Shown here: one piece after another, positions 20,891 to 40,465 of the stretch
Numbering within the stretch: position 1 is the first letter of the stretch
Layout: each line of letters opens with the position of its first letter
DNA from: a virus
Lineage: Duplodnaviria; Caudoviricetes
Reading direction: 5' to 3' (one strand)
IMG/VR virus record: IMGVR_UViG_3300038679_000219
Span: 1-40,465 of that record
Length of the DNA: 40,465 nt
Position numbers and translations under genes: made by a program
Notes under the pieces: generated by a model
Told to the model about the DNA's origin: nothing
The model's input: only the letters and a program-made list of their open reading frames with translations
Database searches by the model: none

Positions 20891-20894
20891 AGCC

Positions 20895-24103: not shown

Positions 24104-24123
24104 GGGTCTTTCAAAATGTTATC

Positions 24124-24159: not shown

Positions 24160-24179
24160 AAACCTGAAGGAGAGCGAAA

Positions 24180-24428
24180 ATGATCCGAATCAAAAGCAAA
24201 AAAGCGGGGTTCAGGCGATGCGGTGTTTCCCATCCGGCAGAGGTTATCGAATACCCGGACGAGCGTTTTACGAAGGAAGATCTGAAGACGCTCCAGAGCG
24301 AACCGATGCTGGTCGTGGAGATCGTGAAGGAGAAAAAGGAAGACCCGCCTGAAAGCCCCGGTGAGGCGGCGGAAGCGGCTGACAGCGGCAAAGAATCGGT
24401 CAAAACCGGGAAGAAAGGCAAACGGTAA
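24180..24428 (+). CDS. HI1506-like (Mu gp35-like) protein
   Basis: IRIKSKKAGFRRCG...L..EPMLVV. Confidence 0.8.
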   Translation: MIRIKSKKAGFRRCGVSHPAEVIEYPDERFTKEDLKTLQSEPMLVVEIVKEKKEDPPESPGEAAEAADSGKESVKTGKKGKR

Positions 24429-24853: not shown

Positions 24854-25296
24854 TGATTGAGACGATTCAGGACGACATCATTACGCAATTGCAAAAGATC
24901 ACCACCGTGGCCAGCGTCGGCGTCTGGCAGGGCGACATTGAGGATCTCCTCAAATCTCCCCAGCGCCTGCCTGCCCTGAACGTCATCTATCACGGCGCGG
25001 ATTTTGGAGAGAAAAAGGTCATCGGGACAAACCGGGCGGATCACCAGATGGACTTCCTAATCGTTCTGGTATATCGGAATCTCAAAAGCAGGGAGGCCGG
25101 TGCATCCGAAGCCTACACGATCATCGAGGCGGTCAGAAACTATCTCATCGGCCACCAGATCAGCCCTTATGGGTGGCTCTGGCCTGTCAGGGAGGATCTG
25201 GTGACGGCTGAGGGTGGGCTGCTGGTTTATGGCCTTAATTATCGTCTGAAGACGAATGTCATCGCAACTGAGCCGGTCCCTGAACCGGAACCGTAA
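24853..25296 (+). CDS. Tail completion/terminator protein (Mu gp37-like)
   Basis: Synteny; MIETIQDDII...LPALNVIYHG. Confidence 0.7.
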   Translation: MIETIQDDIITQLQKITTVASVGVWQGDIEDLLKSPQRLPALNVIYHGADFGEKKVIGTNRADHQMDFLIVLVYRNLKSREAGASEAYTIIEAVRNYLIGHQISPYGWLWPVREDLVTAEGGLLVYGLNYRLKTNVIATEPVPEPEP

Positions 25297-25307
25297 AAGG
25301 AGGATCT

Positions 25308-25502
25308 ATGAAAAAACTATATTATGACGAAGGTCCGAAAATCATGGGCTGCGGCGTCGCCGGGCAGTTCAAGATCGGCGTCCCGAAAGAGGTACCTGAC
25401 GATCTGGCGGAAGTCCTGCTCCGCAAGGGGAGGTTGAAGGAATTCCAGGAAAATCAGCCGGAGTTTGTATCCGGCAAAGGCAAGAAGGGAAAGGAGGAAT
25501 AA
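25308..25502 (+). CDS. Small hypothetical tail-region protein
   Basis: RBS AAGGAGG; 64 aa. Confidence 0.65.
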   Translation: MKKLYYDEGPKIMGCGVAGQFKIGVPKEVPDDLAEVLLRKGRLKEFQENQPEFVSGKGKKGKEE

Positions 25503-25505
25503 CCC

Positions 25506-26474
25506 ATGTCTCAGCAATCAGGCGCTAACGCCGTATTGATATTCGACACGGAAGCCACATACAAGACCACGCCGACCCCGGACGCACACGTGCTGCCGTT
25601 TACGAGCGAATCTCTCCGGCTGAGCCGAAATCTCGTATCGTCCAATACGATTCGTTCGAACCGCAATCCCCAGGCCCCTGTCCGGGGAAACGTGGACGTT
25701 GCAGGGGATATCAATTTCGAGCTTACCCCGCAGTACGGGAAGCTCTTCAAGCACATCTTTGGAGGCTACGGCGTTGCGGGAGGTCCGGCCCCCTACACGC
25801 ATACCTACAAGATCGGCGCGCTTCCCGTCGGAATGTGCATCGAGAAGCAGTTCACGGATCTGGCCACTGACAAGTACTTCCTCTACAACGGATGCCGGGT
25901 GAACAGCTTCAAACTGTCTGCCAAACCGGAGGGGATGATCGAGTGCTCCGTCTCCATCATGGGAGCGAAAGAGACCGTCGGAGCGGCCACCTTCGATGCC
26001 ACGGCGACCGACAACGGCCATACGCCGTTTGACGGCTTTTCTGGGTCTATCCAGCGCGGCGGATCTTCCCTGGGAACGGTCACCGAGATCGATTTCACCC
26101 TGGATAACGCCCTGGACGGGAACACTTACGTCATCGATGGTACGGGCCAGCGCTACAGCCTTCCGGAAGGAAAGGCGAAGGTGACCGGTACCGCCAAAAT
26201 CCTCTTCGAGGACGACGTGCTTTACGCCCTGGCCATTGCTCATACCGAGACGACCCTGGAACTGCATTTTACGAAGGGCGCGGGAACGGGTGCGTCGGCA
26301 GGCAACGAAAAGATGAGCTTCTACCTCGATGAGGCCATTTTCAAGCCTCAGTCCCCGGTGATCTCAGGACCGACGGGCCTGCTGGTGGAGCTTCCTTTTG
26401 AAGGCTTCTACAACGACGATGCCGATGCTTCGGCCCTGCGGATGGTGCTTTTGAGCCCGATAGCGACATTCTAA
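25506..26474 (+). CDS. Major tail tube protein (non-contractile tail)
   Basis: E..Y.TTP...LPFTSESL...GDINFEL...YNGCRVN; no sheath gene in the window. Confidence 0.82.
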   Translation: MSQQSGANAVLIFDTEATYKTTPTPDAHVLPFTSESLRLSRNLVSSNTIRSNRNPQAPVRGNVDVAGDINFELTPQYGKLFKHIFGGYGVAGGPAPYTHTYKIGALPVGMCIEKQFTDLATDKYFLYNGCRVNSFKLSAKPEGMIECSVSIMGAKETVGAATFDATATDNGHTPFDGFSGSIQRGGSSLGTVTEIDFTLDNALDGNTYVIDGTGQRYSLPEGKAKVTGTAKILFEDDVLYALAIAHTETTLELHFTKGAGTGASAGNEKMSFYLDEAIFKPQSPVISGPTGLLVELPFEGFYNDDADASALRMVLLSPIATF

Positions 26475-26492
26475 GCCCAGAAAGGATGCAAC

Positions 26493-26810
26493 ATGGAAAA
26501 AGAAATAGGCGGAAAGAAATTCGAAATCCGGCCCCTCACTCGGGGCGAGGTTAAGGCCCTTAGAAAGAAGGGCTACAATATCGGGAATCTGTCTCTCGAA
26601 AACGCGGATGATGCCGCCGACGAGATCCTGGAGTTGGTCTGTGGGACGGAGCAGATCCAGGAGGTCGACAAACTTCCGAACGACCAGGCTCTGGACCTGT
26701 TCAAGGCGATCATCGACCTGAGTTACGGCAAAGGCGACGATGAAAAAAACTTGAAGCCATCTGGCAGTGGTACGAAGGCGGCGGACCTGCCAGGTGCAAA
26801 GGATGCATAG
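26493..26810 (+). CDS. Tail assembly chaperone (G-like)
   Basis: Between the tube and tape measure genes; contains the slippery site. Confidence 0.8.
   Translation: MEKEIGGKKFEIRPLTRGEVKALRKKGYNIGNLSLENADDAADEILELVCGTEQIQEVDKLPNDQALDLFKAIIDLSYGKGDDEKNLKPSGSGTKAADLPGAKDA
26744..26750 (+). promoter_or_regulatory. Programmed -1 frameshift slippery site A AAA AAC
   Basis: The -1 frame stays open as LEAIWQWYEGG...LLRENEDAWDLW and runs into the ORF ending at 27202. Confidence 0.85.
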
Positions 26811-27202
26811 ATCGGTCTCGGTGTGATCAATGCCGGAACGCCCCGCCCGCTTTGCTGAGGGAAAATGAAGACGCCTGGGATCTATGGACAAACGTCTTGA
26901 CGCAATGGCGGGTGGGGCCGAACGGTGTGATCGGTCTCGATTACAATGCCGCCGCCATGATTGCGGGCGTGATCGAGATCGAATTTGACAAGGTGGTTTT
27001 ACGAAAGCTCCGGGTTCTCGAACAGAGCGTATTGAAGGGGATTCATGACAAGCAGGATGACCGTCCGCATAATGACCCGAAATCAGCATTTTGCCGGGCC
27101 TGCCGGGTGGCAAAAAAGAACGTGGACTGCTCGACCTGCAATATCGACCAAATAATTGTGAAGAGTCCAAATGACAAAACTCGAAATAATCATCGCAGCT
27201 AA
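26750..27202 (+). CDS. Frameshift extension of the tail chaperone (GT-like, DUF1799-like)
   Basis: ENEDAWDLW...TQWRVG...GLDY...LRVLE; in the -1 frame of the chaperone. Confidence 0.75.
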   Translation, partial: LEAIWQWYEGGGPARCKGCIDRSRCDQCRNAPPALLRENEDAWDLWTNVLTQWRVGPNGVIGLDYNAAAMIAGVIEIEFDKVVLRKLRVLEQSVLKGIHDKQDDRPHNDPKSAFCRACRVAKKNVDCSTCNIDQIIVKSPNDKTRNNHRS

Positions 27203-30200
27203 AGACCTGGCGTCCGGCGTCTTACAGACAGTGAACGGCGCAACGCGCTCCTATAGGCAGACGCTCCAGGAGACCAACAGCACTGCAAACGAATTTTCCG
27301 GGACGATCCGCAATCTATTCCTGTCGTTCGGCGGTTATGCCGTCATCAAAAATGCGATGACTGCCGGGTATGGGTTCAATTCCGTGATGGAAGAAACCAA
27401 AGTCGGGTTGGCCTCTTTGATCTATTCCATGCGGGAATTCAGGGACGGAACGGGAGAGGTCGTAACTGGACAGCGGGCCTTCGCCGCCGCCCTGGGGTTG
27501 AGCGTCGAGACGCAGAACCGGCTTCGCATCGCCGGGCTGGAAACCGCCGCAACCTATGAGCAACTGACGAAGGCTTACACCCAGGCTTACGTCCCGGCCC
27601 TGAAGGCTGGTTTCGATGAAAAAATGGTCGTGAACTTCTCCACGGCCATAGTCCAGGCGGCCACGTCCATGCGCGTTCCGCTTGATATGCTCGGTGAGGA
27701 AGTCCGAAGCATCCTGAGCGGCAATATGACGCCGAGAACGACCATGCTGCAGCCGCTCATGGAGGCGGCCGGGCTGACAAACGAAAAGATGCGCCAACTG
27801 AACGCAACAGGGAAGCTCTATCCTGCCGTCATGAAGGCCCTTGAAGGGGCCACAGTCGGCGCAGCAGAGGCATCCAAGAATCTATCCGTCCAGTTGTCCA
27901 ACCTGAAGGACGCAGCCACCCAGGCCCTCGGAAAGGGCATGGAAATAGGCTTTCAAAAGACAAAGAGCATCATCAAGGATGTCACCGATTCCATCGTCAC
28001 GTTCAATAAGGAAACCGGAGAGATCAAATGGAATGAAAGCCTGATCGTCTCCCTGCAGAAGATGGACGAGAAGATCTTCTCCATCATCGACGGCATCCGG
28101 GGCATGAGCAAGGCCATTAGCGATTTCACGAAAAATCATCCCGTCATCGTGGATCTCCTTACCGGATTCGGCGGTCTGGCGGTGAAGATCCTGGCCGTCG
28201 GCGTAGCCATCAGGGCCATCGGTGGAACGGTGACCTGGCTTGCTTCCCTGGTCGCTGCCAATGTTGCCTTCATGGCGGGCCTGTTTGCCCCGGTAGTGGC
28301 GTCAATCGAAAGCCTGTTTGCAGCGGCGCTGGCTGGTGCGGGAGGTCTGGCGACAATGGCGACGGCAGCCGCATTGGCTGCCGGAACTATGGCCGGTATT
28401 GGGGCGGCATTTATCGGATGGAAGTTGGGCCAGCAGATCGCTCAGATGGAGATCCTGGGGCTGACCATTGGTGAAGCTATGCAGGCCGGGTACGCCTCCG
28501 TCGCCAAGTTCGGCGCGTATGCCGTTTATACCTGGGACATGATCGGCGCCACCGCAAAATCGGTGTGGGGACAGGTCAAAGAGGCAGGGAGAATCCTCTT
28601 TTACGAGTTTATTGCCACCATCCAGGAATCCTTTCCCAAGATGGCGCAGTTCTTTGGGCTGACGGAGGTTTACCGAAAAAAGGCCGATTCCGCCAGAACA
28701 GCGCAAGGTGCCATCTATCAGGATTTCATAAAAAATCAGACGGCAGCCGAAGGTAAGCTGAAGCAGGAGTTGAATGTCCAGGAGTCGATCCGCGAGGAGA
28801 TATTCAGGGGAGCCGACGCCAGGAATAAAATCAAGAACGCTACGGACAGCGCCACGAAGAGCACGGAAGAGCTTACTGCCGGAAGCCGTAAGGGAAAGGC
28901 GGCTGCCGTTGAATATAACCTGTCCCACGAAGGCGTGAATCAGACCCTGGACCGGATGACCGATATTCTCAAGTCCGCTAAGGAGAAGATCCTTGAATTT
29001 GCGTCGGAAATCAAGAAACTGACCGCGACGTCTCACGGGGCCAAGCTGATTGACATCGAGGATGCCTACCGGAAGGACATGGCGGCCGTGGAGAAGTACA
29101 AGACCGATATGGAGCGGGCCGTCCGGGAATTACAGGAGAAAATCTCGAAAGCACAAAAAGATGCTGCAAAGAAAAACGCCAAACGGGACGCCAATGATCC
29201 CATCACTGCCGTCGATCCGGCGCTCCAGGCCGACCTGAAGAACATGCTCAAGGCCCAGGAGGAAGTGAACGCTCAGGTCGAGACCATGCGCAAACAGGCG
29301 AAAGATAAGCGGGACATCGCCGTTGCTCAGGAAAACGCCGAATCTCTGGCGAGCGTCCGTTCGTTCGTTACCGCTCAGACACAGGAATACACCCAACTGA
29401 CCGGGAACGTCAGGGCCGGTTACAAAGCGGAAGCCGATGCGTTGCGAGCGAAACTCGCGGAGGAGCTGGAGGACGTCAAGATCTCTGCCGAGAAAAAGGC
29501 GGCCATCACGCTCCTGTACAACGAGAAGATCCGTCAGGCCGAGGTGGTAAAACCTGCCGAGTATGACCGGGCGGCACGGGAGGCGGAACTTAACAATCGC
29601 CTGGCCAGCCTGGATTTGATCGAGGCCGAGGGTACGGCGCATCGAAATACCATAAATGAACGCATTCGTCTGACGGAACAACTTATCTCCCTGCAGCGTC
29701 AATCGCTCGCGGCGATGCCCAAGACGGGCAATGAGCAGGCATGGAATGCGCAAATGGATAAGATTATCGCCGAGATGAAGAAACGGGCGGAGCTGGCCCG
29801 TGAGACGTTGATGAATGAGCCACTGGAGGCGTTTAAGCTGGGGTTCAAGGACATTTTAAACCAATGGACCGACACGGGTAAGCAGATGTATGACATCGCC
29901 CAAACAACGGCCCAGGCAATGCAGCAGGGCTTTTCTGACTTATTTTTCGACGCCTTTCAGGGAAAGCTCAAAAGCCTGGCGGACTATCTCAACGCCTTTT
30001 TGACATCCGTTCATCGAGCCCTGGCTAACGCCCTGTCACAACAGGTGTCGGCTGGGATCACCAGCGGGATTCAGGGGCTATTTAACAGCGGGTCGTCTCC
30101 GGGAGCGAATTACGAGATCGGTGCTGTTGGGTCTCCCTACACCGCCAGCGAAGCGGCCTATATCAATACCGGTGTTTGGCATGGAGGCGGTGGCCCTGGG

Positions 30201-30539
30201 GATTCACCTAAATCGTATAACATCATCCCGAATTTCGCCTTTGCCGGAGCCCCTCGTTTTCACGGCGGATTCGCGCCTGATGAATATCCCGCCATTCTGC
30301 AGCGTGGAGAAGGTGTTTTCACCGCCGGGCAGATGAAGGCCCTGGGGCTCATGGCGAATAGTGGCTCTCTTCCGAAGGTGACCGTCAATATTGACAACCA
30401 GACGGGCACGCAGATGGAAACGGAGCAGAACGACATCCGGTTCGATCACGAGCAGCTTATCATCAACGTGGTGGCCAAAAAAGCGAAGAGCAGCCCTGAT
30501 TTCAGGAGCCTCCTGGCCACCGGCGGGAGGGGTGCATGA
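27171..30539 (+). CDS. Tail tape measure protein
   Basis: 1122 aa, Ala-rich and helical, central hydrophobic segments, C-terminal PRFHGG...EYPAILQRGE. Confidence 0.92.
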   Translation: MTKLEIIIAAKDLASGVLQTVNGATRSYRQTLQETNSTANEFSGTIRNLFLSFGGYAVIKNAMTAGYGFNSVMEETKVGLASLIYSMREFRDGTGEVVTGQRAFAAALGLSVETQNRLRIAGLETAATYEQLTKAYTQAYVPALKAGFDEKMVVNFSTAIVQAATSMRVPLDMLGEEVRSILSGNMTPRTTMLQPLMEAAGLTNEKMRQLNATGKLYPAVMKALEGATVGAAEASKNLSVQLSNLKDAATQALGKGMEIGFQKTKSIIKDVTDSIVTFNKETGEIKWNESLIVSLQKMDEKIFSIIDGIRGMSKAISDFTKNHPVIVDLLTGFGGLAVKILAVGVAIRAIGGTVTWLASLVAANVAFMAGLFAPVVASIESLFAAALAGAGGLATMATAAALAAGTMAGIGAAFIGWKLGQQIAQMEILGLTIGEAMQAGYASVAKFGAYAVYTWDMIGATAKSVWGQVKEAGRILFYEFIATIQESFPKMAQFFGLTEVYRKKADSARTAQGAIYQDFIKNQTAAEGKLKQELNVQESIREEIFRGADARNKIKNATDSATKSTEELTAGSRKGKAAAVEYNLSHEGVNQTLDRMTDILKSAKEKILEFASEIKKLTATSHGAKLIDIEDAYRKDMAAVEKYKTDMERAVRELQEKISKAQKDAAKKNAKRDANDPITAVDPALQADLKNMLKAQEEVNAQVETMRKQAKDKRDIAVAQENAESLASVRSFVTAQTQEYTQLTGNVRAGYKAEADALRAKLAEELEDVKISAEKKAAITLLYNEKIRQAEVVKPAEYDRAAREAELNNRLASLDLIEAEGTAHRNTINERIRLTEQLISLQRQSLAAMPKTGNEQAWNAQMDKIIAEMKKRAELARETLMNEPLEAFKLGFKDILNQWTDTGKQMYDIAQTTAQAMQQGFSDLFFDAFQGKLKSLADYLNAFLTSVHRALANALSQQVSAGITSGIQGLFNSGSSPGANYEIGAVGSPYTASEAAYINTGVWHGGGGPGDSPKSYNIIPNFAFAGAPRFHGGFAPDEYPAILQRGEGVFTAGQMKALGLMANSGSLPKVTVNIDNQTGTQMETEQNDIRFDHEQLIINVVAKKAKSSPDFRSLLATGGRGA

Positions 30540-30943
30540 GTGGCGTTTACGAAAACACCGAATATGACCTGATCTCTGCCCCTATGGGCGGATACAAACC
30601 GATGATTGTATCTCCGAAAGTTCGTTTTCAGGCGACGGCGGGATATGTCCATCAGCGCGACCGCTACCCCGCCCGTGGCAAAAAGATTGTCATTGAATCT
30701 CCAAACATGAGCCAGGGCGAATATAACATGCAACGTGCCTGGATCGACTACATAGGCTCGGAAACATTCTGGTATGTCCTGCCAACTTCCCTGGAGCCCA
30801 GGCCGGACGGCCAGGTCATTCCCAGGGCGATTCTGGCGAGGATCATCGATGAAGAAATTCCGGAGGATCCCGTAGAGTATGGCGACGGCTATATATATCA
30901 TACCAGGATCACCCTTGAATCTATCGGACCGGAGGTGGAATGA
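30536..30943 (+). CDS. Distal tail (Dit/gpM-like) protein
   Basis: Position after the tape measure gene; 135 aa. Confidence 0.55.
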   Translation: MSGVYENTEYDLISAPMGGYKPMIVSPKVRFQATAGYVHQRDRYPARGKKIVIESPNMSQGEYNMQRAWIDYIGSETFWYVLPTSLEPRPDGQVIPRAILARIIDEEIPEDPVEYGDGYIYHTRITLESIGPEVE

Positions 30944-31593
30944 TGGCCAGGACGATACCGGATGACGACCACCGAAATTTCAACAAACCTTCTGTATGGG
31001 TGCCCCTTTTTGAAATCACTCTGGAGACTCAGACGCTTTATTACACGCCGAACCAGGAAGAGATCGTCGTGGACGGCAATACCTATTCGCCTTTCCCCGT
31101 CATGCTGGACGAGATCCGGGACGACGGCAAGGGCGAGATCGCCACGGTTCAGTTGACCATCTCCAATATCGATGGCGTCCTGGGAACCTATCTTAAGCAG
31201 TCCGGATCCGTTGATGGGCAGACGATTATTTTCAAGCTCTATTCCGCAGAAAAGGACGATATCGTCTATCAAGAAACGCTGGAGATCCTCAAATGCGGGC
31301 CGATCACGGACGACGCCATCGTCCTTGAGTTGGGGACGTTCAATCCATTCATGGTGTCGCTCCTTCAGGAGAAATACCTGACCGATTTCTGTTGGAACCG
31401 CTACAAGGGGAAAGGCTGCTATATCAAGCAAATAGACGGCACTTATGCACAGCCGTCCGGATTTATAGCCGGATCTCCAGATTCCTGCAGCCACACCCTG
31501 GCGGATTGCGAGCGACACACGAATGTTTTGAGGTTCAATTCTTTTCCCGGCATTCCCGGATCTGCCTATGTGGGAGGTGGTGGCTTTGTATAA
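30940..31593 (+). CDS. Minor tail protein L-like
   Basis: GNTYSPFP, LTISNIDG and Cys cluster CWNRYKGKGC...C.HTLADC...F.SFPGIP. Confidence 0.8.
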   Translation: MMARTIPDDDHRNFNKPSVWVPLFEITLETQTLYYTPNQEEIVVDGNTYSPFPVMLDEIRDDGKGEIATVQLTISNIDGVLGTYLKQSGSVDGQTIIFKLYSAEKDDIVYQETLEILKCGPITDDAIVLELGTFNPFMVSLLQEKYLTDFCWNRYKGKGCYIKQIDGTYAQPSGFIAGSPDSCSHTLADCERHTNVLRFNSFPGIPGSAYVGGGGFV

Positions 31594-34500
31594 TCATCCT
31601 GCTCCTGTTCCCATTGCATATACCCCGGTCGAGTGGAAAGACCTGATCGGGATCCAGTACGCCCTCCGGGGAGAACATGACCCTCTGTGTCTGAACTGTT
31701 ATGGCCTGATTCGGGAGGTTTATTGCAGGCTAAAAGTCGAGCTGCCTGCCCGTGATGAAGACGGCATCGATGAGGCGCTGATCGCTACTGAGGGAAGAAA
31801 CTGGATCAAGATCTCACGCCCTCAGCCCTATTCCGTAGCCCTGCTGAAGATGCCTTCTGGCAACTATCACCTCGGCATCGTGACGCCGGAGATGAGTCTG
31901 CTCCATTCTCTTCCCCACAAGGGCGTCGTGTTGTCTCGCCTTTCCCGGTACGATTCGTTTATCGTCGGTTACTATGCGTACAAGCCTGGCGGCGGGGAAT
32001 CGTTGCCGGACGGGGATGGAGGAAACTCCGGCAGGATGATAGCACAAATTCTGGTGGTTATCGTCGCGGCGATTGCGACTTGGTATGTCGGCGGCGCGGG
32101 TGGTTATGGAGTTGCGGGATTGAACATGGGTGCTGGCTGGGGAATGGCGGCGGGGATGGCCGTTACTTTGGCCGGCAATATGGTCATCAATGCCACCATG
32201 CCCCTTGCCCCTCCGGAGGTCCCACAGATCTCCGGCTTCAGCGGCGACATCGCCGCCAGCAGCGTTTACAACCGCTATGACTGGAACGGGATCACCAACG
32301 AGGCCAGCCAGGGCCTGGTGAAGCCCATGATCTTCGGGATAATCAGGACAGGCGGCCAGATCGTCAGCGAGAAGACCTGGTATGATCCGAGCGAGAACGA
32401 ATATCTGGACATGCTGCTCTGCCCGGCAGGTCACCGGATCACCCGCTTTGAGGATATTCGCATCAACGACACGGTCTATACCTACTTCAAGGGGGCCTAC
32501 ATCGATTCGCGGATGGGCGATGATGAGCAGACCATGATGGACATGTTTGACGTCATCCACGTCCAATATGCCTCCGGTGCCAGGGTTCCTTATGATGCGT
32601 CGACAAGCGGTCCTTCCAACGTGGTCCTGTTCGCCTCGAAAGCGAGGATCACCGGGGCAAGACTGACGATTGTTGGCCCTCGTGGAATCTGTGAATATAC
32701 CGGCGGCGCTTATGTGGCCAGAAGCGTCGATTTCCGTATCCAGTATCGGAAAACCTCAGCAAGCACCTGGAATTTCATCCCTGGAGACGGCGTCGTCGGC
32801 CCTGGGGATATCACTGAAACAAACAGCGGGTTCTCCGGGAGAATTACCTGGGGCTTCGACAGCAATATTGAGACGACCTACATCTCCTTCACCCTCAATA
32901 GCTACTGGACCATCGACAATTCAACCTATTTCTCCAATTCAGGGTATCGGGTGTATTACCGGGAGACCGGGGCGAGTTCATGGATACTTCACAACACATA
33001 TGAGTTCGGCACTCCTGCCGGAGATCCATTCACACAGCCGAATGCAAACGGATCCGTCAACGTCGTCATTAACAATCTTCCTGAAGGCTATTATCAGGTG
33101 CGTGTGGACTGGTATCACGACTGGTGTACGAACGTATACGGGACCCACAACCGAAGCGCCTTTGCTATTACCAGTGTTGTCATGGCGTCGCAGGGGGAAG
33201 CCTTTACGATCAGCGGCGATTCCCTATCGCCGACGTCTGCCGTATCCAGAACAGCGCAAATCACCGGCCTGGACAAAGACTACTATTACTTCCGGATCTG
33301 GAGGACGACGACCGACCAGGATACCGAGCTTTGGATGGACGATATTTATCTTAAGTCCTATGCCGAAATCATCGATGCTCAGTGTTCCTATCCGAACCAC
33401 TCTCTGCTGGGCGTCCGGGCAATGGCGACGGACAGGCTCTCCGGGGCCCGCCCGAAGGTTACCTCCGTCGTCACGGGTCCCCCCTTATCGGTTCCTCCTG
33501 CCGCCGACCGGGAAGACACGACCGTCTATGCCGACGAGGGCCTGGTCACTGGAACGGGAACCGAGATCAATGAGATCAACGTCGACGGCCTGCGCAAGAT
33601 CAAAATCAATGCCGCCCTCGCCGATCCGGACACGGTTCCGGACACGTATTACTGGCTGGTCTTCATGGCTTCCTCCGGTTACGCCCAGGACGCCCGGCCC
33701 TTGACGAAGTTTTATGTCCGGGTCGAGACCTGGGAATTGACTGATTCCAATACGAAAACCAGGCTCTATGTCCGGATGGCGGAAACGGTTACGGCGGGCG
33801 CTTCCGTCATGGCCTTTCACGAAAGCGACGCTCCGACCAGAAACACCGCCTGGGCCACTGCATTAATGCTTTTGAACGGTTCTCAGGGGCGGATCACGAT
33901 CAGCGACGACCACTGGTCCTATTGGGAAGAGTGGAACGATTGGAATGAAGAGCTGGTTTATAACGCGGCAACCCTCGCATATGAAAAGCGGCACCAGTAT
34001 GATGCCGTGATCGATTTTCAGTCCGACCTGTGGAGCACTGCCTTCAGGGCGGCAGCCACCGCCAGGGCGGCGCTGGTCGCTTCCGGCGGCAGTTATCGTC
34101 CCGTGATCGACCGGGCGGCCACGGAAGTGCAGATCTTCGCTGAAGGTAATGCCGCAAATAGCCGCGTCGAGATGATCCCGAAGCAGGATCGTCCCAACAT
34201 CCTGGTCACCACTTTCCTCGATGAAAATGACAACTACAAACAGAAAACCATCTCCGAGGAGGATGTGGCTGCTGGTGAATATCCGATTGTGAAGACCATT
34301 CCCATCCAGGTCGGCGTCGTCCGGGAATCCCAGGTGCGCCGCCTGCTGAAATACATGCTGGCGCAGAACCGCTATGTGACCCACACGATCTCCCTGGACG
34401 CCGGGCTCGATGCCATCGAATGCGAGGTCGGCGATGCCTTTTTGAATCAGTCCCAGGCGAAGGACCTGGCGTTTTCCGGCAGGATTCAGGAGGTCTCCGG

Positions 34501-34801
34501 CAGCAACGTCCTTCTGGATCGGGAATTCACGCCGGAAGCGGGCGAAACCTATAAACTGTCCATCTGGGGCGACGGGGCCATCTATACCTGGCAGGGCACC
34601 CTGACCGGGACGGATATTCAGACGATCCCGCTGCCGACGGGCTTTGTCATGACCGACATGTACGAATATCCCTATATGCTGACGAAGTTGACTGCCGAAC
34701 GGACAAAATACCGGCTGCTTGGCGTCAAGAGACCCGTATCGACTATGCATTCCGAACTCGCGGCCATCGAGTATCGCTCCGAGGTCTATGCGAATGATTG
34801 A
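31568..34801 (+). CDS. Tail tip protein: NlpC/P60 (K-like) + I-like hydrophobic segment + J-like host-specificity region
   Basis: LNCYGL...HLGIV...LLHS at the N-terminus, a Gly/Ala-rich TM-like segment, then KPMIFG, SYPNHSLLG and ECEVGD J-like motifs. Confidence 0.8.
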   Translation: MWEVVALYNHPAPVPIAYTPVEWKDLIGIQYALRGEHDPLCLNCYGLIREVYCRLKVELPARDEDGIDEALIATEGRNWIKISRPQPYSVALLKMPSGNYHLGIVTPEMSLLHSLPHKGVVLSRLSRYDSFIVGYYAYKPGGGESLPDGDGGNSGRMIAQILVVIVAAIATWYVGGAGGYGVAGLNMGAGWGMAAGMAVTLAGNMVINATMPLAPPEVPQISGFSGDIAASSVYNRYDWNGITNEASQGLVKPMIFGIIRTGGQIVSEKTWYDPSENEYLDMLLCPAGHRITRFEDIRINDTVYTYFKGAYIDSRMGDDEQTMMDMFDVIHVQYASGARVPYDASTSGPSNVVLFASKARITGARLTIVGPRGICEYTGGAYVARSVDFRIQYRKTSASTWNFIPGDGVVGPGDITETNSGFSGRITWGFDSNIETTYISFTLNSYWTIDNSTYFSNSGYRVYYRETGASSWILHNTYEFGTPAGDPFTQPNANGSVNVVINNLPEGYYQVRVDWYHDWCTNVYGTHNRSAFAITSVVMASQGEAFTISGDSLSPTSAVSRTAQITGLDKDYYYFRIWRTTTDQDTELWMDDIYLKSYAEIIDAQCSYPNHSLLGVRAMATDRLSGARPKVTSVVTGPPLSVPPAADREDTTVYADEGLVTGTGTEINEINVDGLRKIKINAALADPDTVPDTYYWLVFMASSGYAQDARPLTKFYVRVETWELTDSNTKTRLYVRMAETVTAGASVMAFHESDAPTRNTAWATALMLLNGSQGRITISDDHWSYWEEWNDWNEELVYNAATLAYEKRHQYDAVIDFQSDLWSTAFRAAATARAALVASGGSYRPVIDRAATEVQIFAEGNAANSRVEMIPKQDRPNILVTTFLDENDNYKQKTISEEDVAAGEYPIVKTIPIQVGVVRESQVRRLLKYMLAQNRYVTHTISLDAGLDAIECEVGDAFLNQSQAKDLAFSGRIQEVSGSNVLLDREFTPEAGETYKLSIWGDGAIYTWQGTLTGTDIQTIPLPTGFVMTDMYEYPYMLTKLTAERTKYRLLGVKRPVSTMHSELAAIEYRSEVYAND

Positions 34802-34812
34802 AGGAGGTTGCC

Positions 34813-35763
34813 ATGAGTGATGTATTTCCAAGCGTTTTATACACCCTCTACGATCTGCGCTACAAAAAGATCACCGATCAGGACGCCAAAGACACGGCGC
34901 AAGATGCCGCCCTGGACGTCCACAAGGTCTATCCGGACGCCCATGCCGTGCAGAACGTCATGGAACCGGCGACGAACAATGCCGGGCGCGTCGGAGGGGC
35001 ATCCAAGAATTACGCGGCCGGGTATTTCCAACAGGTTTTTCTGGGTGGGGTTGGCAAAACCGCCTGGGATCTGGCCGCCTCCGGTTTGAACGGCCTGGTC
35101 ATGTCCGGGGTGTCCACCTTCGGTGGCGTCGACGGTATCACGATCACCCACAACCTCGGCTTGACGGGCTATGTCATCACGGCGACGCCCCTGGCCAAAG
35201 CGGAACGGGTCGGCGGGGTCTGGTACGTCCGGGCGGCCAACACCGTCACGGTCTATAACACCGGCGAGGCGGGAATACAGTTCACGATCACCATCGAGGT
35301 GGACGCCGGGATGACAACCCCGGCGCAGTGGCTCTGGCGTCATTACGGCGGTCTGCAGGTGGACGGCCAGATCTGGGCGAAGAACCTGATCGAGTCCCTG
35401 GACATCAAACCGGACAGCGACGCGGCCCGGACCCTGGGATCGGCGATCCTGCGCTACCTGCAGGGGCATTTTGTGAACCTGACCCTGGGTGGGGTGTCAA
35501 AGGCAGCCTGGCCGACAGCGGTCGCCGGATCGAACGGCAATGTTTTCATGAGCGGCGCTGTTACCCTGGCCGGTCAGGATGGAGTGACCGTGACGCATAG
35601 CAAAGGCGACACGAGTTATCTGGTCAAAACCATGCCCACCGGGACCGGCGGCCTGGGACGGATCGGCGACATTTCTTATGTGAAAGCAGCCAATACGGTC
35701 GTGATCTACAATTCCGGGCATGGCGGCTTCCCGGCGGACATCGAATTATCCAACGTGGTGTAA
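34813..35763 (+). CDS. Tail fibre-like protein with two tandem ~115-aa repeats
   Basis: LGGVGKTAW...DGITITHN...YVRAANTVTVYNTG versus LGGVSKAAW...DGVTVTHS...YVKAANTVVIYNSG. Confidence 0.75.
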   Translation: MSDVFPSVLYTLYDLRYKKITDQDAKDTAQDAALDVHKVYPDAHAVQNVMEPATNNAGRVGGASKNYAAGYFQQVFLGGVGKTAWDLAASGLNGLVMSGVSTFGGVDGITITHNLGLTGYVITATPLAKAERVGGVWYVRAANTVTVYNTGEAGIQFTITIEVDAGMTTPAQWLWRHYGGLQVDGQIWAKNLIESLDIKPDSDAARTLGSAILRYLQGHFVNLTLGGVSKAAWPTAVAGSNGNVFMSGAVTLAGQDGVTVTHSKGDTSYLVKTMPTGTGGLGRIGDISYVKAANTVVIYNSGHGGFPADIELSNVV

Positions 35764-35772
35764 GGAGGGCTT

Positions 35773-36321
35773 ATGATTATCGGCAATAATGACAAAATCA
35801 GCGTTCAGGGATCGACCTTTAACCTCGCCGCCTTTGCCTGCGCCCAGGGCAACGTCGCGGCCCAGGCGGTCGATTTGTCGCCCTATCAGGGGCATACGGT
35901 ACGGGTCTATCTCGACGGCAATCTCCAGATCCGGATCAATCCCAGGGAGGACATGTTCTGGCAACTGGCCGAGATGTCCATTCCGGCACCTCAGAGCCGC
36001 CAGATTCAGCAGGGAACCGTCGAAGTAGAAAAAACGGAATCGGAGACAATCTTACGAGGAGAGACCGACTTTGATGCCGTGCCGGGTATCGATGGAGCGG
36101 AAATAAAAGAGGTCGGGCATTACTGGAAAAACTACCGTCGCGGGTTGATTTGGCAAGCGGAGGCAACGGGGGTGCGCTGGCTGGGCGATATTGGTCCTAT
36201 CGTCGGAGAGGAATATCCGGTCACGCTGTTGAGGGCCGTTATCGAAACAAACATGGTCTCCGAGGTCATTCCGCTGGATCTGGAGGAAATCATCATTCAG
36301 GCGTTTGAAAATCCCGTTTAA
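35773..36321 (+). CDS. Hypothetical tail-associated protein
   Basis: RBS AAGGAGG; lies between the fibre gene and the DGR target. Confidence 0.7.
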   Translation: MIIGNNDKISVQGSTFNLAAFACAQGNVAAQAVDLSPYQGHTVRVYLDGNLQIRINPREDMFWQLAEMSIPAPQSRQIQQGTVEVEKTESETILRGETDFDAVPGIDGAEIKEVGHYWKNYRRGLIWQAEATGVRWLGDIGPIVGEEYPVTLLRAVIETNMVSEVIPLDLEEIIIQAFENPV

Positions 36322-36332
36322 AGGAGGACGAT

Positions 36333-37448
36333 ATGGGTAAGCGAACCAGTTTGTGGATTTTGGAAAAGTTGATGCAGTTCGACACGAGGCTTGACGTCTA
36401 TGTGGACGCCGACGGCAATGAGTCGGTTATGAAATGGATACCTCCGTTTCGTGCCTGCCGGGCACTGACCAGCACTGCGGCGGTGGCGACACCGTCAGGG
36501 AGCGTCGGCGATTGGTTTCACCCTGAAGATATTCAGGCGGGATGGGTGAACAACACGGATTATGAAATCATTTCGATGGGCGGATACTGGGTCGATATGT
36601 ATCTCTGTTCGTCTCCCCTGGCAACATCTGCCAGCATAGGCTCTGCCTGTAACGGCACTGATGTAAACAAGAAAGCCTATGTGTCCCAGCCCGGAGTCGC
36701 TCCGATGGTGAGTCAGACCATTGCCCACTTTCGGCAATATCTGAAGTCGAGATTTTCCTATGGAGGATTCGCGGGCGGTATCGCCGGGACCGGATGGGCC
36801 GGGAAGGGCGGTCTCATGACGGATGCCCACTGGTTCGAGTTGTGGATCTGGACCAGGATTAACCGTTGGCTGCTCCGTGGAAACACCAATGGATATGTGG
36901 ATGAATCGGGAACGCCTGCGACCCCGAAGTGGCACTTGGATGCCAATGATATCGGCATGCGTGATCAGTCCGATACGGCTGGGCATGGCTCGTCTCTGAC
37001 CGGTGGCGGCAGCAAGCTGTGGGATATTCCGATCAGTGATTTTTGCGGAAACCGATGGGAATTCACGGATGGTCTTCGATTGAACGGCGGTGCCATTTAT
37101 ACGGCCGGGAAGACTGTCAACCCATTTACGGGCTACACCGACGGCTATGGCCATGCAAGCTTTGCCGCCACGGGCTTGTCCGTCTCCGGGTGTACGCACG
37201 GGCAGTCCATAGCATCATACCGTGCGGAAGCCGCACTGAAGCTGCATGGGATACCGGCCAGCACTGTAACTGCGGGCACGGGCGGTTTTGATGGCGGGGT
37301 TTTCTATTTTGACCTTACCTCTGAGCGGATAGCTCTTCGCGGTGGTAGTTGTTCTAATGGGGCGCTTTGCCCCGGCGCGCTCTACATTTACTTTGCGCCC
37401 TCCGTCAACGGTTGGTTTATCGGCGCGCGCGCAGTACTTGTTCCCTGA
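36333..37448 (+). CDS. DGR target protein, Mtd-like C-type-lectin-fold receptor-binding protein
   Basis: GGYWVDMYLCS, DFCGNRWEFTDG and C-terminal ALRGG...IGAR; the 3' end is homologous to TR. Confidence 0.9.
   Translation: MGKRTSLWILEKLMQFDTRLDVYVDADGNESVMKWIPPFRACRALTSTAAVATPSGSVGDWFHPEDIQAGWVNNTDYEIISMGGYWVDMYLCSSPLATSASIGSACNGTDVNKKAYVSQPGVAPMVSQTIAHFRQYLKSRFSYGGFAGGIAGTGWAGKGGLMTDAHWFELWIWTRINRWLLRGNTNGYVDESGTPATPKWHLDANDIGMRDQSDTAGHGSSLTGGGSKLWDIPISDFCGNRWEFTDGLRLNGGAIYTAGKTVNPFTGYTDGYGHASFAATGLSVSGCTHGQSIASYRAEAALKLHGIPASTVTAGTGGFDGGVFYFDLTSERIALRGGSCSNGALCPGALYIYFAPSVNGWFIGARAVLVP
37332..37434 (+). repeat. DGR variable repeat (VR) with GC-only tract
   Basis: Ungapped 103-nt alignment to 38879-38981 with 14 mismatches at TR adenines; CGGCGCGCGCGC at 37421-37432. 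Confidence 0.93.
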
Positions 37449-37468
37449 AACCTGGTTCCTGTGTTCTG

Positions 37469-37494
37469 ACCCTCTGCCCGATAGGGCAGAGGGT
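37469..37494 (+). promoter_or_regulatory. DGR target-recognition hairpin
   Basis: ACCCTCTGCCC-GATA-GGGCAGAGGGT: an 11-bp perfect stem with a GRNA-type loop, 20 nt after the target stop. Confidence 0.88.
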
Positions 37495-37540
37495 TCGCGA
37501 AAAATTTTTGAAGATGCGCTTTTTGTACAAGAAATAAAAG

Positions 37541-37620
37541 GCGGACAGTATTCCAGGGAGTTGCGACCTCCCCAGACCAGGCGCTAAAGACGCCCGACGG
37601 GATAACCCGCTACCATCCGC
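37541..37620 (+). ncRNA. Putative structured RNA leader upstream of the methylase
   Basis: Closing stem 37541-37550/37611-37620 encloses three hairpins (GGGAG/CTCCC, GGCG/CGCC, CGGG/CCCG). Confidence 0.5.
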
Positions 37621-37682
37621 ACAGTGAAACCGAACGGCTTATAGCAGGGTTACTCCCATAAATCAATTCGGGGAGGACCACA

Positions 37683-38471
37683 ATGAACAGTTTTTTAGCG
37701 TATATGGGCGGAAAATCGTTACTGGCGCGCAAGATCATTCCGAAGATCCCGGAGCACAAATGCTACGTGGAAGTCTTCGCGGGCGCAGCCTGGCTGTTAT
37801 TCAAGAAAGAAGAGAACACATCGGACGTGGAGATTATCAACGACATTAACCTGGATCTGGTGACCCTGTACCGGGTGGTCAAACACCACCTGGAGGAGTT
37901 TATCAGGTATTTCAAATGGGTTCTCGTCTCGCGTGATGAATTCTATCGGTTTCGCAAGGAGTTACCGGATACCCTGACGGACATTCAGCGGGCGGTCCGG
38001 TTTTACTATCTCCTCAAGTTGGGCTATGCGGCCAGGATTAAGGACCCGTCCTTCTCCATCGCCACAACCTCCAAGCCCCGCCTGAACCTCCTGCGGATCG
38101 AAGAGGAGTTGTCTGCGGTCCACCTTCGCCTGGCGCGGGTCTACATCGAGCATCGATCCTACGCGGAGGTCTTTGCCCGCTTTGACAAGCCGGACACCTT
38201 CTTTTATATCGATCCGCCCTATTACGGCTGCGAGGATTACTATGGGGACGGAATCTTTGATCAAAGTGATTTCATGAAGCTCCGGGACATCCTGGCCAGC
38301 ATTTCCGGTAAATTCATCCTGTCGATCAATGACGTGGACCATATCCGGGATCTGTTCAGGGGCTTCCACATCGAGACGGTACCGACGTCCTATTCGGCGG
38401 CCGGGGCCAACAGAAAGAAATACGTGAACGAGCTGCTCATGATGAATTATGAGCCGCCTATTGAATCATAA
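37683..38471 (+). CDS. D12-class N6-adenine DNA methyltransferase (Dam-like)
   Basis: YMGGKS, YVEVFAGAA, EIINDIN and FYIDPPY motifs. Confidence 0.93.
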   Translation: MNSFLAYMGGKSLLARKIIPKIPEHKCYVEVFAGAAWLLFKKEENTSDVEIINDINLDLVTLYRVVKHHLEEFIRYFKWVLVSRDEFYRFRKELPDTLTDIQRAVRFYYLLKLGYAARIKDPSFSIATTSKPRLNLLRIEEELSAVHLRLARVYIEHRSYAEVFARFDKPDTFFYIDPPYYGCEDYYGDGIFDQSDFMKLRDILASISGKFILSINDVDHIRDLFRGFHIETVPTSYSAAGANRKKYVNELLMMNYEPPIES

Positions 38472-38473
38472 TC

Positions 38474-38502
38474 TTGACGATGGAAAGGCACCGTGATAGA
38501 AG
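38474..38502 (+). promoter_or_regulatory. Candidate promoter for avd-TR-RT
   Basis: TTGACG (38474-38479), 17 bp, TAGAAG (38497-38502), with TG at the extended -10 position. Confidence 0.4.
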
Positions 38503-38530
38503 GCGAGGTCCTTATCGGGGTGATAAATCG

Positions 38531-38872
38531 ATGGAAGAGTTGATCTTAAAGCAGAAACACGAAGACATGATGATTTATGGCTACGGTTGCCTGCGGCAGT
38601 TTCCGAAAAGCGAGAAGCACACGCTTTCAGCGGAGATTCGCCAGTCGATGTATGAAATCGACAAGCACATCATTCGTGCCCAGAAGCGCTACTTTAAGAA
38701 AACAACCCTCCAGGATCTCGACATCGAGATCGCCCATTTAAGGACCAAAGTCAGATTGGCCAAAGATTTAGAGTTCCTGCCATTCAACAAGTACGAGAAT
38801 TGGGAAAAGATGATTGTCGAACTTGGCCGGATGGTAGGTGGGTGGCTGAAAAAGCTGCCCGCAGGGTCATGA
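38531..38872 (+). CDS. avd: DGR accessory variability determinant (Avd)
   Basis: QFPKSEKHTLSAEIR...LQDLDIEI..LR..VRLA...ELGRMVGGW; immediately upstream of TR. Confidence 0.92.
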   Translation: MEELILKQKHEDMMIYGYGCLRQFPKSEKHTLSAEIRQSMYEIDKHIIRAQKRYFKKTTLQDLDIEIAHLRTKVRLAKDLEFLPFNKYENWEKMIVELGRMVGGWLKKLPAGS

Positions 38873-38878
38873 CCGTCT

Positions 38879-38981
38879 GCTCTTCGCGGTGGTAATTGTA
38901 ATAACGGGGCGCAGTCCCCGGGGGCGCTCAACCTCAATAACGCCCCGTCCAACAACAATTGGAATATCGGCGCGCGCGCAG
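38879..38981 (+). repeat. DGR template repeat (TR)
   Basis: Intergenic between avd and RT; 23 adenines and ten AAY codons in the VR reading frame. Confidence 0.93.
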
Positions 38982-39145
38982 CACATCTAACGGCAGATGC
39001 TTTGAAGGTACTGCCTTCAAAGACGGTCCACAACTTGTACAGGTCATGATCCTTGTCGCACTCGAAGCTGAGTCGGCAAAAATATTAAGCTGTGCGGGTG
39101 GTCAGTAGGAAGCCCGAACGCCACCCGCATTAGCGTTGAGAGACA

Positions 39146-40195
39146 ATGAAACGACACGGAAACCTCTATCATAAAATAATTACCTTCGAGAATATCTGCG
39201 AGGCTTATCACAAGGCGGCCCTGGGGCGGCGATATACCTACGAGGTCCTGTCTTTCCGCAATAATCTGGAGGAGAATCTGATCTCCATCCAGGAAGACCT
39301 GGTCGACAAGACCTATCAACCCGGCAATTACTGGAAATTCACCCTCTACGAGCCGAAAAGGCGCACCATTTACGTCTCTCCATTCAGAGATCGTGTTGTC
39401 CATCATGCCATAATGAACATTATCGAGCCGATCTGGGACCATCTCTTCATCTACGATTCCTACGCCTGCCGGAAATTTAAAGGAAGCCATGACGCCATGT
39501 ACCGCGTCGTTAAATTCTTCCGAGAGACAAAGCAGCAATATGAACGTGTATACTGCCTGAAAGGCGACGTTTCCAAGTTCTTTCCTTCGATAAACCACCA
39601 CATTCTAATGGAGATCATCGGACGCAAGATCAAATGCAAGGACACCCTTTCCTTGATCCGGAAGATCGTTTTTAACGCTGGAGATCCGTTAGATCCAGAT
39701 TCCAAGAATATGCCTATCGGGAGCCTGCTTTCGCAGTGGTCGGCGAATCTTTACTTGAACGAGCTGGATTACCATATCAAACACAATATGCAGGTTAAAT
39801 TCTATGTCCGCTACATGGATGACTTCGTTCTCCTCGATGACGACAAGGCCCGGCTGCACGCTTATAAGGCTGAAATATTATCCTATTTAAATGATCATCT
39901 ACGGCTTCAGTTAAACCCCAAGAGCGACATTTACCCGGCAGATCGAGGCATTGACTTTGTCGGTTATCGGATATGGCCGAGCTATCGATTGGTGCGGAAA
40001 AAGGCCCTTGTGCGCGCCACGAAGCGGTTTAAGAGGCTCTCACACGATTACGAGCATGGGCTGGTGGATTTGGCCCATGTCAATTCATCGGTCATGTCCT
40101 GGTTGGGACACTGCGGGCATGCCCACGTTCTGAACGGTAAAATAAAGTGTTTGGAGGCGCTGGTCTTAAGACGACCTACTGAGCAGACTGGATAA
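39146..40195 (+). CDS. DGR reverse transcriptase
   Basis: FRDRVVHHA, LKGDVSKFFPSI, MPIGSLLSQ (DGR-type SQ), YVRYMDDF and GIDFVGY motifs. Confidence 0.96.
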   Translation: MKRHGNLYHKIITFENICEAYHKAALGRRYTYEVLSFRNNLEENLISIQEDLVDKTYQPGNYWKFTLYEPKRRTIYVSPFRDRVVHHAIMNIIEPIWDHLFIYDSYACRKFKGSHDAMYRVVKFFRETKQQYERVYCLKGDVSKFFPSINHHILMEIIGRKIKCKDTLSLIRKIVFNAGDPLDPDSKNMPIGSLLSQWSANLYLNELDYHIKHNMQVKFYVRYMDDFVLLDDDKARLHAYKAEILSYLNDHLRLQLNPKSDIYPADRGIDFVGYRIWPSYRLVRKKALVRATKRFKRLSHDYEHGLVDLAHVNSSVMSWLGHCGHAHVLNGKIKCLEALVLRRPTEQTG

Positions 40196-40298
40196 AACCA
40201 GCAGAGATGAGGCGGTTTCTACCTGGCAATCGCGGCAGATTCAAAACAGGCCGACAATTGCACAGGATTTTTGCACCCTACGACCCACCCCGTGGGGG

Positions 40299-40367
40299 TT
40301 GTCGCATGTTTCGTTTTTTTGTCTCAGATTACGTTTTTTCTTGTCGCAGAATAACTTTCGCCTGACA
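40299..40367 (-). repeat. Right end (attR) with putative transposase-binding boxes R1-R3
   Basis: TTGTCGCA 40299-40306, TTGTCTCA 40319-40326 and TTGTCGCA 40341-40348. The outermost box starts at position 20 from the end on both sides. Confidence 0.8.
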
Positions 40368-40372
40368 CCCCC
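40368..40372. repeat. Right copy of 5-bp target-site duplication (CCCCC)
   Basis: Follows the terminal ACA (40365-40367) and matches 120-124. Confidence 0.85.
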
Positions 40373-40457: not shown

Positions 40458-40465
40458 TGGTGGGC
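40458..40465 (-). tRNA. Possible 3' end of a tRNA gene (GCCCACCA), cut off by the window edge
   Basis: Only 8 nt are visible: CCA end followed by a hairpin. Confidence 0.35.

What the first reader, a model, noticed from the sequence alone, without database searches (positions are those of the whole stretch)
36333..40195. Complete diversity-generating retroelement in a transposable (Mu-like) phage, at the position of Mu's G-inversion system
Seen: a CLec-type target whose 3' 103 nt (37332-37434) align without gaps to an intergenic TR (38879-38981). 14 of the 23 TR adenines are substituted. There is a GC-only tract, divergent IMH/IMH*-like ends, an 11-bp GATA-loop hairpin, avd and an intact RT (YMDD). 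The ten AAY codons allow about 15^10 protein variants. Known: this is the Bordetella BPP-1 architecture (mtd-avd-TR-brt), which switches host tropism. Inference: the DGR occupies the right-end slot where Mu has S/U/gin, no invertase is present, and replicative transposition could spread many independently diversified receptor-binding alleles.
Basis: partly seen in the sequence, partly recalled or inferred. Interest (0 to 1): 0.82.

Follow-up and report, generated by a model that had tools for sequence, protein, structure and literature searches.

The report
Mu-like phage DGR with swapped template
A complete Mu-type jumping prophage carries a standard diversity-generating retroelement aimed at a likely host-binding tail protein, a pairing already described in other phages, but here the template repeat likely arrived recently by recombination from a related phage and no longer matches its target.

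Summary
The DGR is real: TR/VR, Avd, a DGR-clade RT and a CLec-fold target (closest TaqVP) sit in a complete transposable prophage (125-40367, 5-bp duplication). The headline is not new. BalMu-1 and YPCBV-1 have the same right-end target-avd-RT layout, and Mushu and hankyphage are published transposable phages with active DGRs. (1) TR and VR also differ at 11 of 80 non-adenines (relatives: 17 of 1285). The VR fits the TR of the nearest relative (1 mismatch), and the window's TR lies in a ~265-bp tract of another lineage, so the template was likely swapped. No VR variation appeared in contigs of 6 runs. (2) A Dam-type methylase (mom slot) separates the target from avd-TR-RT, so only the target is in the S/U slot; the tail is non-contractile. 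(3) The right end lies 90 nt behind a tRNA; 15 of 20 related ends do likewise in one orientation (sister end type 0 of 9). The scan noted this on other DNA before. Activity is shown in the family (two copies of one prophage differ at 15 sites, all TR adenines), not in this strain. Verdict: new member of a known kind, interest 0.4.

The parts
125..40367 (+). Complete transposable (Mu-like) prophage, TG...CA ends with three GACAA-type repeats each
   Evidence: ends, repeats; Mu portal, F, I, gpT, gp36, gp37, GemA
120..124 (.). Left copy of 5-bp target-site duplication CCCCC
40368..40372 (.). Right copy of 5-bp target-site duplication CCCCC
3330..5642 (+). MuA-like DDE transposase
   Evidence: phrog_310 E 3e-67; Mu-transpos_C
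5617..6348 (+). MuB-like AAA ATPase
   Evidence: phrog_296 E 4e-37; AAA_22
25506..34801 (+). Non-contractile tail module: tube, tape measure, gpL-like, NlpC/P60-gpJ
   Evidence: no sheath hit among the ORFs scanned
36333..37448 (+). DGR target, 371 aa, CLec fold (FGE subtype); predicted receptor-binding tail protein
   Evidence: model pLDDT 92.6; TaqVP 5vf4 E 6e-17, Mtd E 3e-4; profile hit to 5vf4 E 1e-8
37332..37434 (+). Variable repeat (VR), codons 334-368; GC-only tract 37421-37432
37435..37448 (+). IMH-like end, diverging from the TR end in the same way in relatives
37469..37494 (.). 11-bp hairpin with GATA loop downstream of VR
   Evidence: same core in 27 of 32 related VR loci, stem arms co-vary
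37683..38471 (+). D12/Dam-type adenine methyltransferase at the mom position, inside the DGR cassette
   Evidence: PF02086 E 1e-31; TIGR00571 above cut-off
38531..38872 (+). avd (ATG start; the ORF finder opens at TTG 38474)
   Evidence: NF033474 above cut-off; PF22296
38879..38981 (+). Template repeat (TR), 23 adenines, 10 AAY codons
38839..39103 (+). Likely recombinant tract (avd 3' end, TR, spacer) of L009/L002 type in an L014-type backbone
   Evidence: informative sites
38982..39145 (+). IMH*-like end and spacer between TR and RT
39146..40195 (+). DGR reverse transcriptase, 349 aa, PIGSLLSQ and YMDD motifs; last gene before attR
   Evidence: bRT 8ub7 E 1e-58 against group II 1e-20; tree
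40458..40465 (-). 3' end of host tRNA-Lys(TTT), 90 nt beyond attR, pointing at the phage
   Evidence: full gene in identical contig L001

Best explanation
This is a BPP-1-type diversity-generating retroelement in a complete Mu-like prophage, predicted to rewrite the binding tip of a CLec-fold tail protein, whose template repeat was likely replaced recently by recombination with a related phage. Shown: all parts are present and intact; in the family the VR changes only at TR adenines; the window's VR matches a relative's TR better than its own; the window's TR sits in a tract of different ancestry. From known DGR biology: Avd-RT copies TR RNA with errors at adenines and the cDNA replaces VR, helped by the IMH and hairpin. 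Inferred: the present VR was written by the former (L014-type) TR; a ~265-bp crossover brought in a new TR; the middle of the VR has not yet been overwritten. A full overwrite would also change fixed residues (L345 to a CAG-based codon, C346S, I352L), which may be selected against. The receptor-binding role is inferred from fold and gene position. Confidence: DGR 0.97; TR swap 0.8; currently active in this strain about 0.5.
For: Avd above cut-off. RT falls with BPP-1, BalMu-1, YPCBV-1 and Mushu RTs, apart from 6 group II RTs at 100/100. Target fold is TaqVP/Mtd. In 16 distinct related pairs 177 of 363 adenines but only 17 of 1285 other bases differ. L009 and L032, the same prophage at the same site, differ at 15 of 9250 nt, all 15 in VR at TR adenines. 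Swap: window VR against the L014 TR has 1 non-A mismatch, against its own TR 11; the L002 VR fits the window TR with 1. At sites separating L014 from L009 the window sides with L014 at 25 of 27 upstream, with L009 at 15 of 16 in 38839-39103, and with L014 at 8 of 8 just downstream; 13 of 24 differences from L014 cluster in 66 nt (0 of 20,000 permutations). The same TR tract is in unbroken contigs of runs X5, X9 and X12, and X11 has VR and TR on one contig, which argues against misassembly.
Against: No VR variant of this strain was seen in contigs of 6 of 7 runs laid; the seventh held only diverged relatives. These were contigs, not raw reads, and probably come from one campaign. The exact donor TR was not found: the pattern scan returned only the window's own TR and the L002 VR, L002 ends before its TR, and L009 still differs at 5 of 66 sites. 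The window TR is the only one of 53 TR/VR copies with TCC at the Cys346 codon (50 TGC, 2 GCC, duplicates included), which could also be decay. The genomes are mosaic elsewhere too (second tract 39217-39319), so the swap may be incidental. Virion location and receptor binding were not tested. No retron RT was in the tree; retrons were excluded by profile score only (48 against a cut-off of 235).
Confidence: 0.8

Rival explanations
1. The DGR is decaying: it stopped working and TR and VR drifted apart by ordinary mutation.
For: Only 56% of mismatches face adenines; no VR variation in contigs; unique TCC codon in the TR; several relatives have lost parts of the cassette (L015, L017, L028, L055). 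PMC3521204 (passages) raises this reading for repeats with many non-A changes.
Against: Drift would not make the VR match another phage's TR at 79 of 80 non-A sites, nor give the TR 8 alleles shared with L009 in one block, while avd and RT stay 99% identical to L014 and intact.
Confidence: 0.07
2. The TR is native and the 3' end of the target gene (the VR) came in by recombination from an L014-type phage.
For: The target gene is the more diverged part against L014 (113 of 732 nt upstream of VR), and the DNA after the VR resembles L017 and L002.
Against: avd (5 of 342 differences) and most of RT (3 of 370, 12 of 495) are L014-type on both sides of the TR tract, so the TR block is the odd piece. 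Direction could reverse only if L014 itself were a double recombinant.
Confidence: 0.09
3. The RT has relaxed specificity and mutates non-adenine bases (an atypical DGR).
For: 11 non-A differences; Roux et al. (bioRxiv 2020.04.01.020958, passages) list 7 clusters with under 75% adenine mismatches.
Against: The 99%-identical RT of L014 has 1 non-A mismatch in its own pair, and the 11 changes are exactly the L014 TR alleles.
Confidence: 0.02
4. The mismatch is an assembly chimera of two co-occurring phages.
For: Run X10 holds related variants of the spacer and right end.
Against: The tract is spanned without differences by single contigs in X5 and X9, X11 links VR and TR, and L001 is identical over 14,133 nt. 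Some of these may be the window's own source.
Confidence: 0.02

Closest known systems
Bordetella phage BPP-1 DGR (mtd-avd-TR-brt)
   Same: C-terminal VR in a CLec-fold protein, AAY-rich TR between avd and RT, GC-only tract, divergent ends, downstream hairpin (hairpin and IMH roles recalled); RT 36% identical.
   Different: A Dam gene splits target from avd (TR-VR distance 1547 nt); target is closer to TaqVP than to Mtd; host phage transposes, whereas the BPP-1 record has a tRNA att site; TR and VR disagree at 11 non-A sites.
Bacillus phage BalMu-1 and Chromohalobacter phage YPCBV-1 (Mu-like isolates with DGR)
   Same: FGE/CLec target-avd-TR-RT after the tail genes at the right end of a transposable phage; BalMu-1 RT is the best isolate hit, 46%; in YPCBV-1 RT is also the last gene.
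   Different: They have baseplate/XkdT-type tail genes, no methylase inside the cassette, and clean pairs (1 and 0 non-A mismatches).
Faecalibacterium phage Mushu and Bacteroides hankyphage
   Same: Transposable phages with DGR activity shown in virion reads (PMC5883640, PMC12135933; passages). The title of Toussaint 2013 on DGRs in Mu-like phages of Firmicutes was seen in a reference list only.
   Different: Mushu's target is annotated Hoc-like and lies after RT; gut hosts, against a probable Syntrophales host from coal/groundwater here.
Phage Mu right end (S-U-gin-com-mom) and Mu-like phages with a methylase at mom
   Same: Variable tail protein at the end of the tail module; adenine methylase at the mom position as in B3 and FluMu (PMC3299994, passages).
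   Different: No invertase found; non-contractile tail; avd-TR-RT lies beyond the methylase; insertion is strongly biased to sites behind tRNA genes, whereas Mu samples tRNA flanks only as part of broad insertion (PMC7350765, passages).
Thermus aquaticus variable protein TaqVP (PDB 5VF4)
   Same: Best structural match, E 6e-17, TM 0.56-0.60; VR residues align with its C-terminal segment.
   Different: 18% identity; function of neither is shown here.

Membership tests
DGR (BPP-1 type) | RT in the DGR clade with GxxxSQ motif and intact active site | tested here: met
   (29 rows, DGR side 100/100; PIGSLLSQ, YMDD). No retron row in the tree.
DGR (BPP-1 type) | TR/VR pair with adenine-biased differences, VR in a coding 3' end | tested here: met
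   14/23 against 11/80, p=1.7e-5
DGR (BPP-1 type) | At least 75% of TR/VR mismatches opposite adenine (typical profile, Roux et al.) | tested here: not met
   14 of 25 = 56% with own TR; 13 of 14 with the L014 TR. An operational norm, not a strict criterion: Roux et al. kept such cases when the RT is in the clade.
DGR (BPP-1 type) | Avd accessory gene | tested here: met
   NF033474 112.8 bits, cut-off 80
DGR (BPP-1 type) | IMH/IMH* asymmetry and downstream hairpin | tested here: met
   hairpin core in 27 of 32 VR loci; function not assayed
DGR (BPP-1 type) | CLec- or Ig-fold target | tested here: met
DGR (BPP-1 type) | Ongoing adenine-directed diversification | tested here: inconclusive
   Met in relatives (L009 against L032, 15 of 15); not seen in this strain, contigs only
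DGR (BPP-1 type) | Target is a virion receptor-binding protein that switches tropism | not testable with these tools
   Position after tail genes and matches to tail-fibre models only
Mu-like transposable phage | MuA/MuB, TG...CA ends with repeats, 5-bp duplication, Mu-type head genes | tested here: met
Mu-like transposable phage | Replicative transposition and packaging of variable host ends | not testable with these tools
   Relatives show the same attR with different flanks; no virion reads
Mu G-inversion system | Serine invertase and inverted gix sites around tail-fibre genes | tested here: not met
   PF00239 0 of 1 record; no long inverted repeat flanking the target among the 25 longest shown
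Group II intron / retron RT | Profile score above cut-off, SP motif, clustering with those RTs | tested here: not met
   TIGR04416 130.8 against 300; retron St85 48 against 235

The most novel reading that the evidence does not exclude
These phages swap whole template repeats between lineages as a second layer of diversification, resetting fixed residues of the binding site that adenine mutagenesis cannot reach; this would explain some 'atypical non-adenine' DGRs. They also steer their Mu-type transposase to a window about 85-120 nt behind any tRNA gene in one orientation using an unknown phage-encoded target selector, while a sister lineage lands exactly 14 nt before -35 promoter boxes.
Probability: 0.4. 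Interest if true: 0.7.

Novelty: new member of a known kind. Interest (0 to 1): 0.4.

Why it matters
The DGR-in-Mu-like-phage pairing itself is ordinary and extends the kind to a probable Syntrophales phage family from anoxic subsurface and digester samples. The value lies in two by-products. First, it is a caught-in-the-act case of template replacement: high non-A mismatch, usually read as decay or odd specificity, can come from TR exchange, and the 11 marker sites make the length of natural retrohoming tracts directly readable in deep reads. Second, the family's oriented insertion behind tRNA genes, with a built-in negative control in the same host order, points to target selection by Mu-type transposases, which are normally treated as near-random.

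Tried and rejected
Pfam and NCBIfam found no family for the target, alone or in 92 aligned members; a single-sequence PDB search found nothing; only the profile and fold searches worked. Rfam found no family in the window at gathering level and only a chance U4 hit for the conserved leader before dam. No second VR exists in the window; the host chromosome is not held (G000 is this contig), so remote targets could not be sought. A pattern scan for the donor TR found none. Apparent VR variants in run X11 are the TR mapping onto the VR and were rejected; loose ends in X10 and X13 are low-depth and were not interpreted. The MuA query found no relative in viral contigs beyond an identical copy and only one weak hit in 3 genomes, so end types could not be tied to transposase clades. 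The ESM Atlas gave the HTH gene after MuB (6329-6832) only generic wHTH neighbours; its role as target selector is a guess. One search (self-comparison) gave nothing. One site (37423, G as in the new TR, C in L014-type repeats) hints at partial 3' overwriting by the new TR, but DNA recombination explains it as well, so it was not counted. The L009/L054 comparison also has differences outside VR (139 of 158 sites) and was not used as clean evidence. Literature searches for tRNA-directed insertion of Mu-like phages and for TR exchange returned no paper describing either; most hits were seen as listings only and subscription journals and supplements were not covered.
Full report
Observation. The repeat pair is as described: VR 37332-37434 and TR 38879-38981 align without gaps, 14 of 23 TR adenines are substituted, ten AAY codons give 15^10 variants, and an 11-bp GATA hairpin lies at 37469-37494. 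No other site in the window resembles the TR. Two facts were left out. Eleven of 80 non-adenine positions also differ, all in 37358-37400, and a Dam-type methyltransferase gene stands between target and avd.

The element. Avd passes its NCBIfam cut-off. The RT's best solved relative is Bordetella bRT (E 1e-58; group II RTs 1e-20). In a 29-row tree it falls with the BPP-1, BalMu-1, YPCBV-1 and Mushu RTs, separated from six group II RTs at 100/100, and has the SQ motif and YMDD; no retron was in the tree, and retrons are excluded by profile score only. The target has no Pfam family, but a 92-sequence profile hits TaqVP and the model (pLDDT 92.6) matches TaqVP at E 6e-17, Mtd at 3e-4 and many phage tail-fibre models.

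The phage. The window is a complete transposable prophage, 125-40367, with TG...CA ends, three repeats per end and a CCCCC duplication, MuA, MuB, GemA and Mu-type head genes, and a tube/tape-measure/gpL/gpJ tail with no sheath hit. No resolvase/invertase or tyrosine recombinase was found. Close relatives occur in a Syntrophaceae MAG and other deltaproteobacterial MAGs; the right end matches 12 of 339 genomes of that order; runs holding the DNA are coal and groundwater metagenomes. The host itself is not identified.

Activity in the family. In 16 distinct related TR/VR pairs, 177 of 363 adenines and 17 of 1285 other bases differ (0-4 per pair). L009 and L032 are the same prophage at the same insertion site and differ at 15 of 9250 nt, all in VR at TR adenines. 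The hairpin core is present in 27 of 32 VR loci, near-copies included. In this strain, contigs of six runs (X5, X9, X10, X11, X12, X13) carry the window's VR unchanged; X16 held only diverged relatives; 7 of 24 listed runs were laid, all as contigs, which drop rare variants.

The mismatch. The window's 11 non-A differences exceed the family rate (p=1e-7). The VR fits the TR of the nearest relative L014 (target 94%, avd and RT 99%) with one non-A mismatch, and the VR of L002 fits the window's TR with one. At sites that separate L014 from L009, the window follows L014 at 25 of 27 in avd, L009 at 15 of 16 in 38839-39103, and L014 again at 8 of 8 in 39170-39210. The simplest reading is that a tract with the avd end, TR and spacer came in from another lineage after the VR was written. 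Single contigs in several runs span the tract. Against this: the donor was not found, a second mosaic tract lies in RT, and the new TR alone has TCC at a codon that is TGC in 50 of 53 copies; the L002 VR has GCC there, so the cysteine is dispensable in that lineage. Published surveys treat such pairs as atypical or decaying (Roux et al. preprint; PMC3521204; passages only). My searches found no paper on TR exchange.

Position. The order is tail genes, target, hairpin, dam, avd, TR, RT, attR. Many relatives end in dam-attR with no DGR gene in the fetched flank, and others have target-avd-TR-RT without dam (L006, L011, L018, L031, L035, L043). A methylase at the mom position is known in Mu-like phages (PMC3299994, passages). 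So only the target occupies the S/U-like slot; the machinery lies outside the mom slot. The functional analogy with G inversion is fair but untested.

Comparison with the known. BalMu-1 and YPCBV-1 are Mu-like isolates with FGE-type target, avd and RT at the right end; the YPCBV-1 paper notes its DGR (PMC9769972, passages). Mushu and hankyphage are transposable phages with DGR activity in virion DNA (PMC5883640, PMC12135933, passages), and a 2013 paper title on DGRs in Mu-like phages appears in a reference list. BPP-1 IMH and hairpin functions are recalled; the review I asked for is not held. The headline is therefore known.

Insertion site. The right end lies 90 nt from the 3' end of a tRNA-Lys that points at the phage. 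Among 27 distinct right ends of this type, 7 had under 130 nt of flank and were dropped (L161, L156 and L124 look like misses). Of the other 20, 15 lie behind a tRNA in the same orientation (Lys, Leu, Phe, Arg, Thr; 13 at 84-122 nt, one at 19, one at 212; L035 read by eye from a partial gene), and 5 do not. A sister group with similar dam genes and another end sequence shows 0 of 9 (p=2e-4), but 5 of those 9 end exactly 14 nt before TTGACA. Selection among lysogens is a rival, though it explains fixed orientation poorly. Many flanks carry short direct repeats like ends of tRNA-integrated islands (my recalled reading), so the true target may be those ends. Tn7-like tRNA homing by TnsD is known (PMC10293859, passages); two papers on transposable phage sites do not mention tRNA; four searches found no report for Mu-like phages. 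Two earlier notes of this scan describe the same behaviour on other DNA; I saw them after making the observation.

Verdict. Genuine DGR, new member of a known kind. Interest 0.4, carried by the template swap and the oriented insertion rather than by the headline.

Noticed in passing
window 40367-40465; L001, L009, L019, L035, L054, L099, L103, L111, L117, L119, L121, L145, L146, L159, L160: Right ends of this Mu-like family lie behind tRNA 3' ends in one orientation in 15 of 20 informative cases, 13 at 84-122 nt, across five tRNA types.
   Followed up: partly
L128, L129, L139, L142, L144 (right ends ...CCACA): A sister group of dam-bearing elements with another end sequence ends exactly 14 nt before TTGACA, a sigma-70 -35 box, in 5 of 9 long-flank cases; possible promoter-directed insertion.
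   Followed up: partly
L015, L017, L028, L055, L036, L012: Relatives with deleted DGR parts: hairpin joined to the RT 3' end (L015), avd and TR missing (L017), VR running into a TR-type tail and RT (L028), RT fragment only (L055), no cassette after the target (L036, L012). Alleles may get locked by cassette loss.
   Followed up: partly
window 37540-37682: Non-coding leader before dam, conserved about 88% in another contig of run X5; no Rfam match; no com gene seen. Possible regulatory RNA.
   Followed up: partly
window 39217-39319: Second mosaic tract inside RT (22 of 114 differences from L014 against 3 of 370 next to it).
   Followed up: no
window 18175-20305: A 449-aa ORF with a DRAT-like ADP-ribosyltransferase hit (E 7e-9) and a 274-aa unknown ORF lie right after the MuF gene.
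   Followed up: no
window 8429-8694: 29-nt inverted repeat, 97% complementary, 208 nt apart, before the RdgC-like gene.
   Followed up: no
window 6329-6832: 167-aa winged-helix protein directly after MuB; a candidate target selector by position only.
   Followed up: partly
L116, L122: Short solo right-end remnants (about 50 nt) just downstream of tRNA-Leu with the inner side facing the tRNA.
   Followed up: no
L153 5013-5156: A relative's right end abuts a piece of a DGR RT gene 85% like the window's, as if inserted into another copy of the family.
   Followed up: no
L004, L005, L008-L010, L056, L057: The same target family sits on different tail modules and end types, and some targets are about 430 aa long; the DGR block moves between phage backbones.
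   Followed up: no
L101, about 300 nt left of attL: An IS21-like element (IstB-type ORF, read by eye) lies in the host flank.
   Followed up: no
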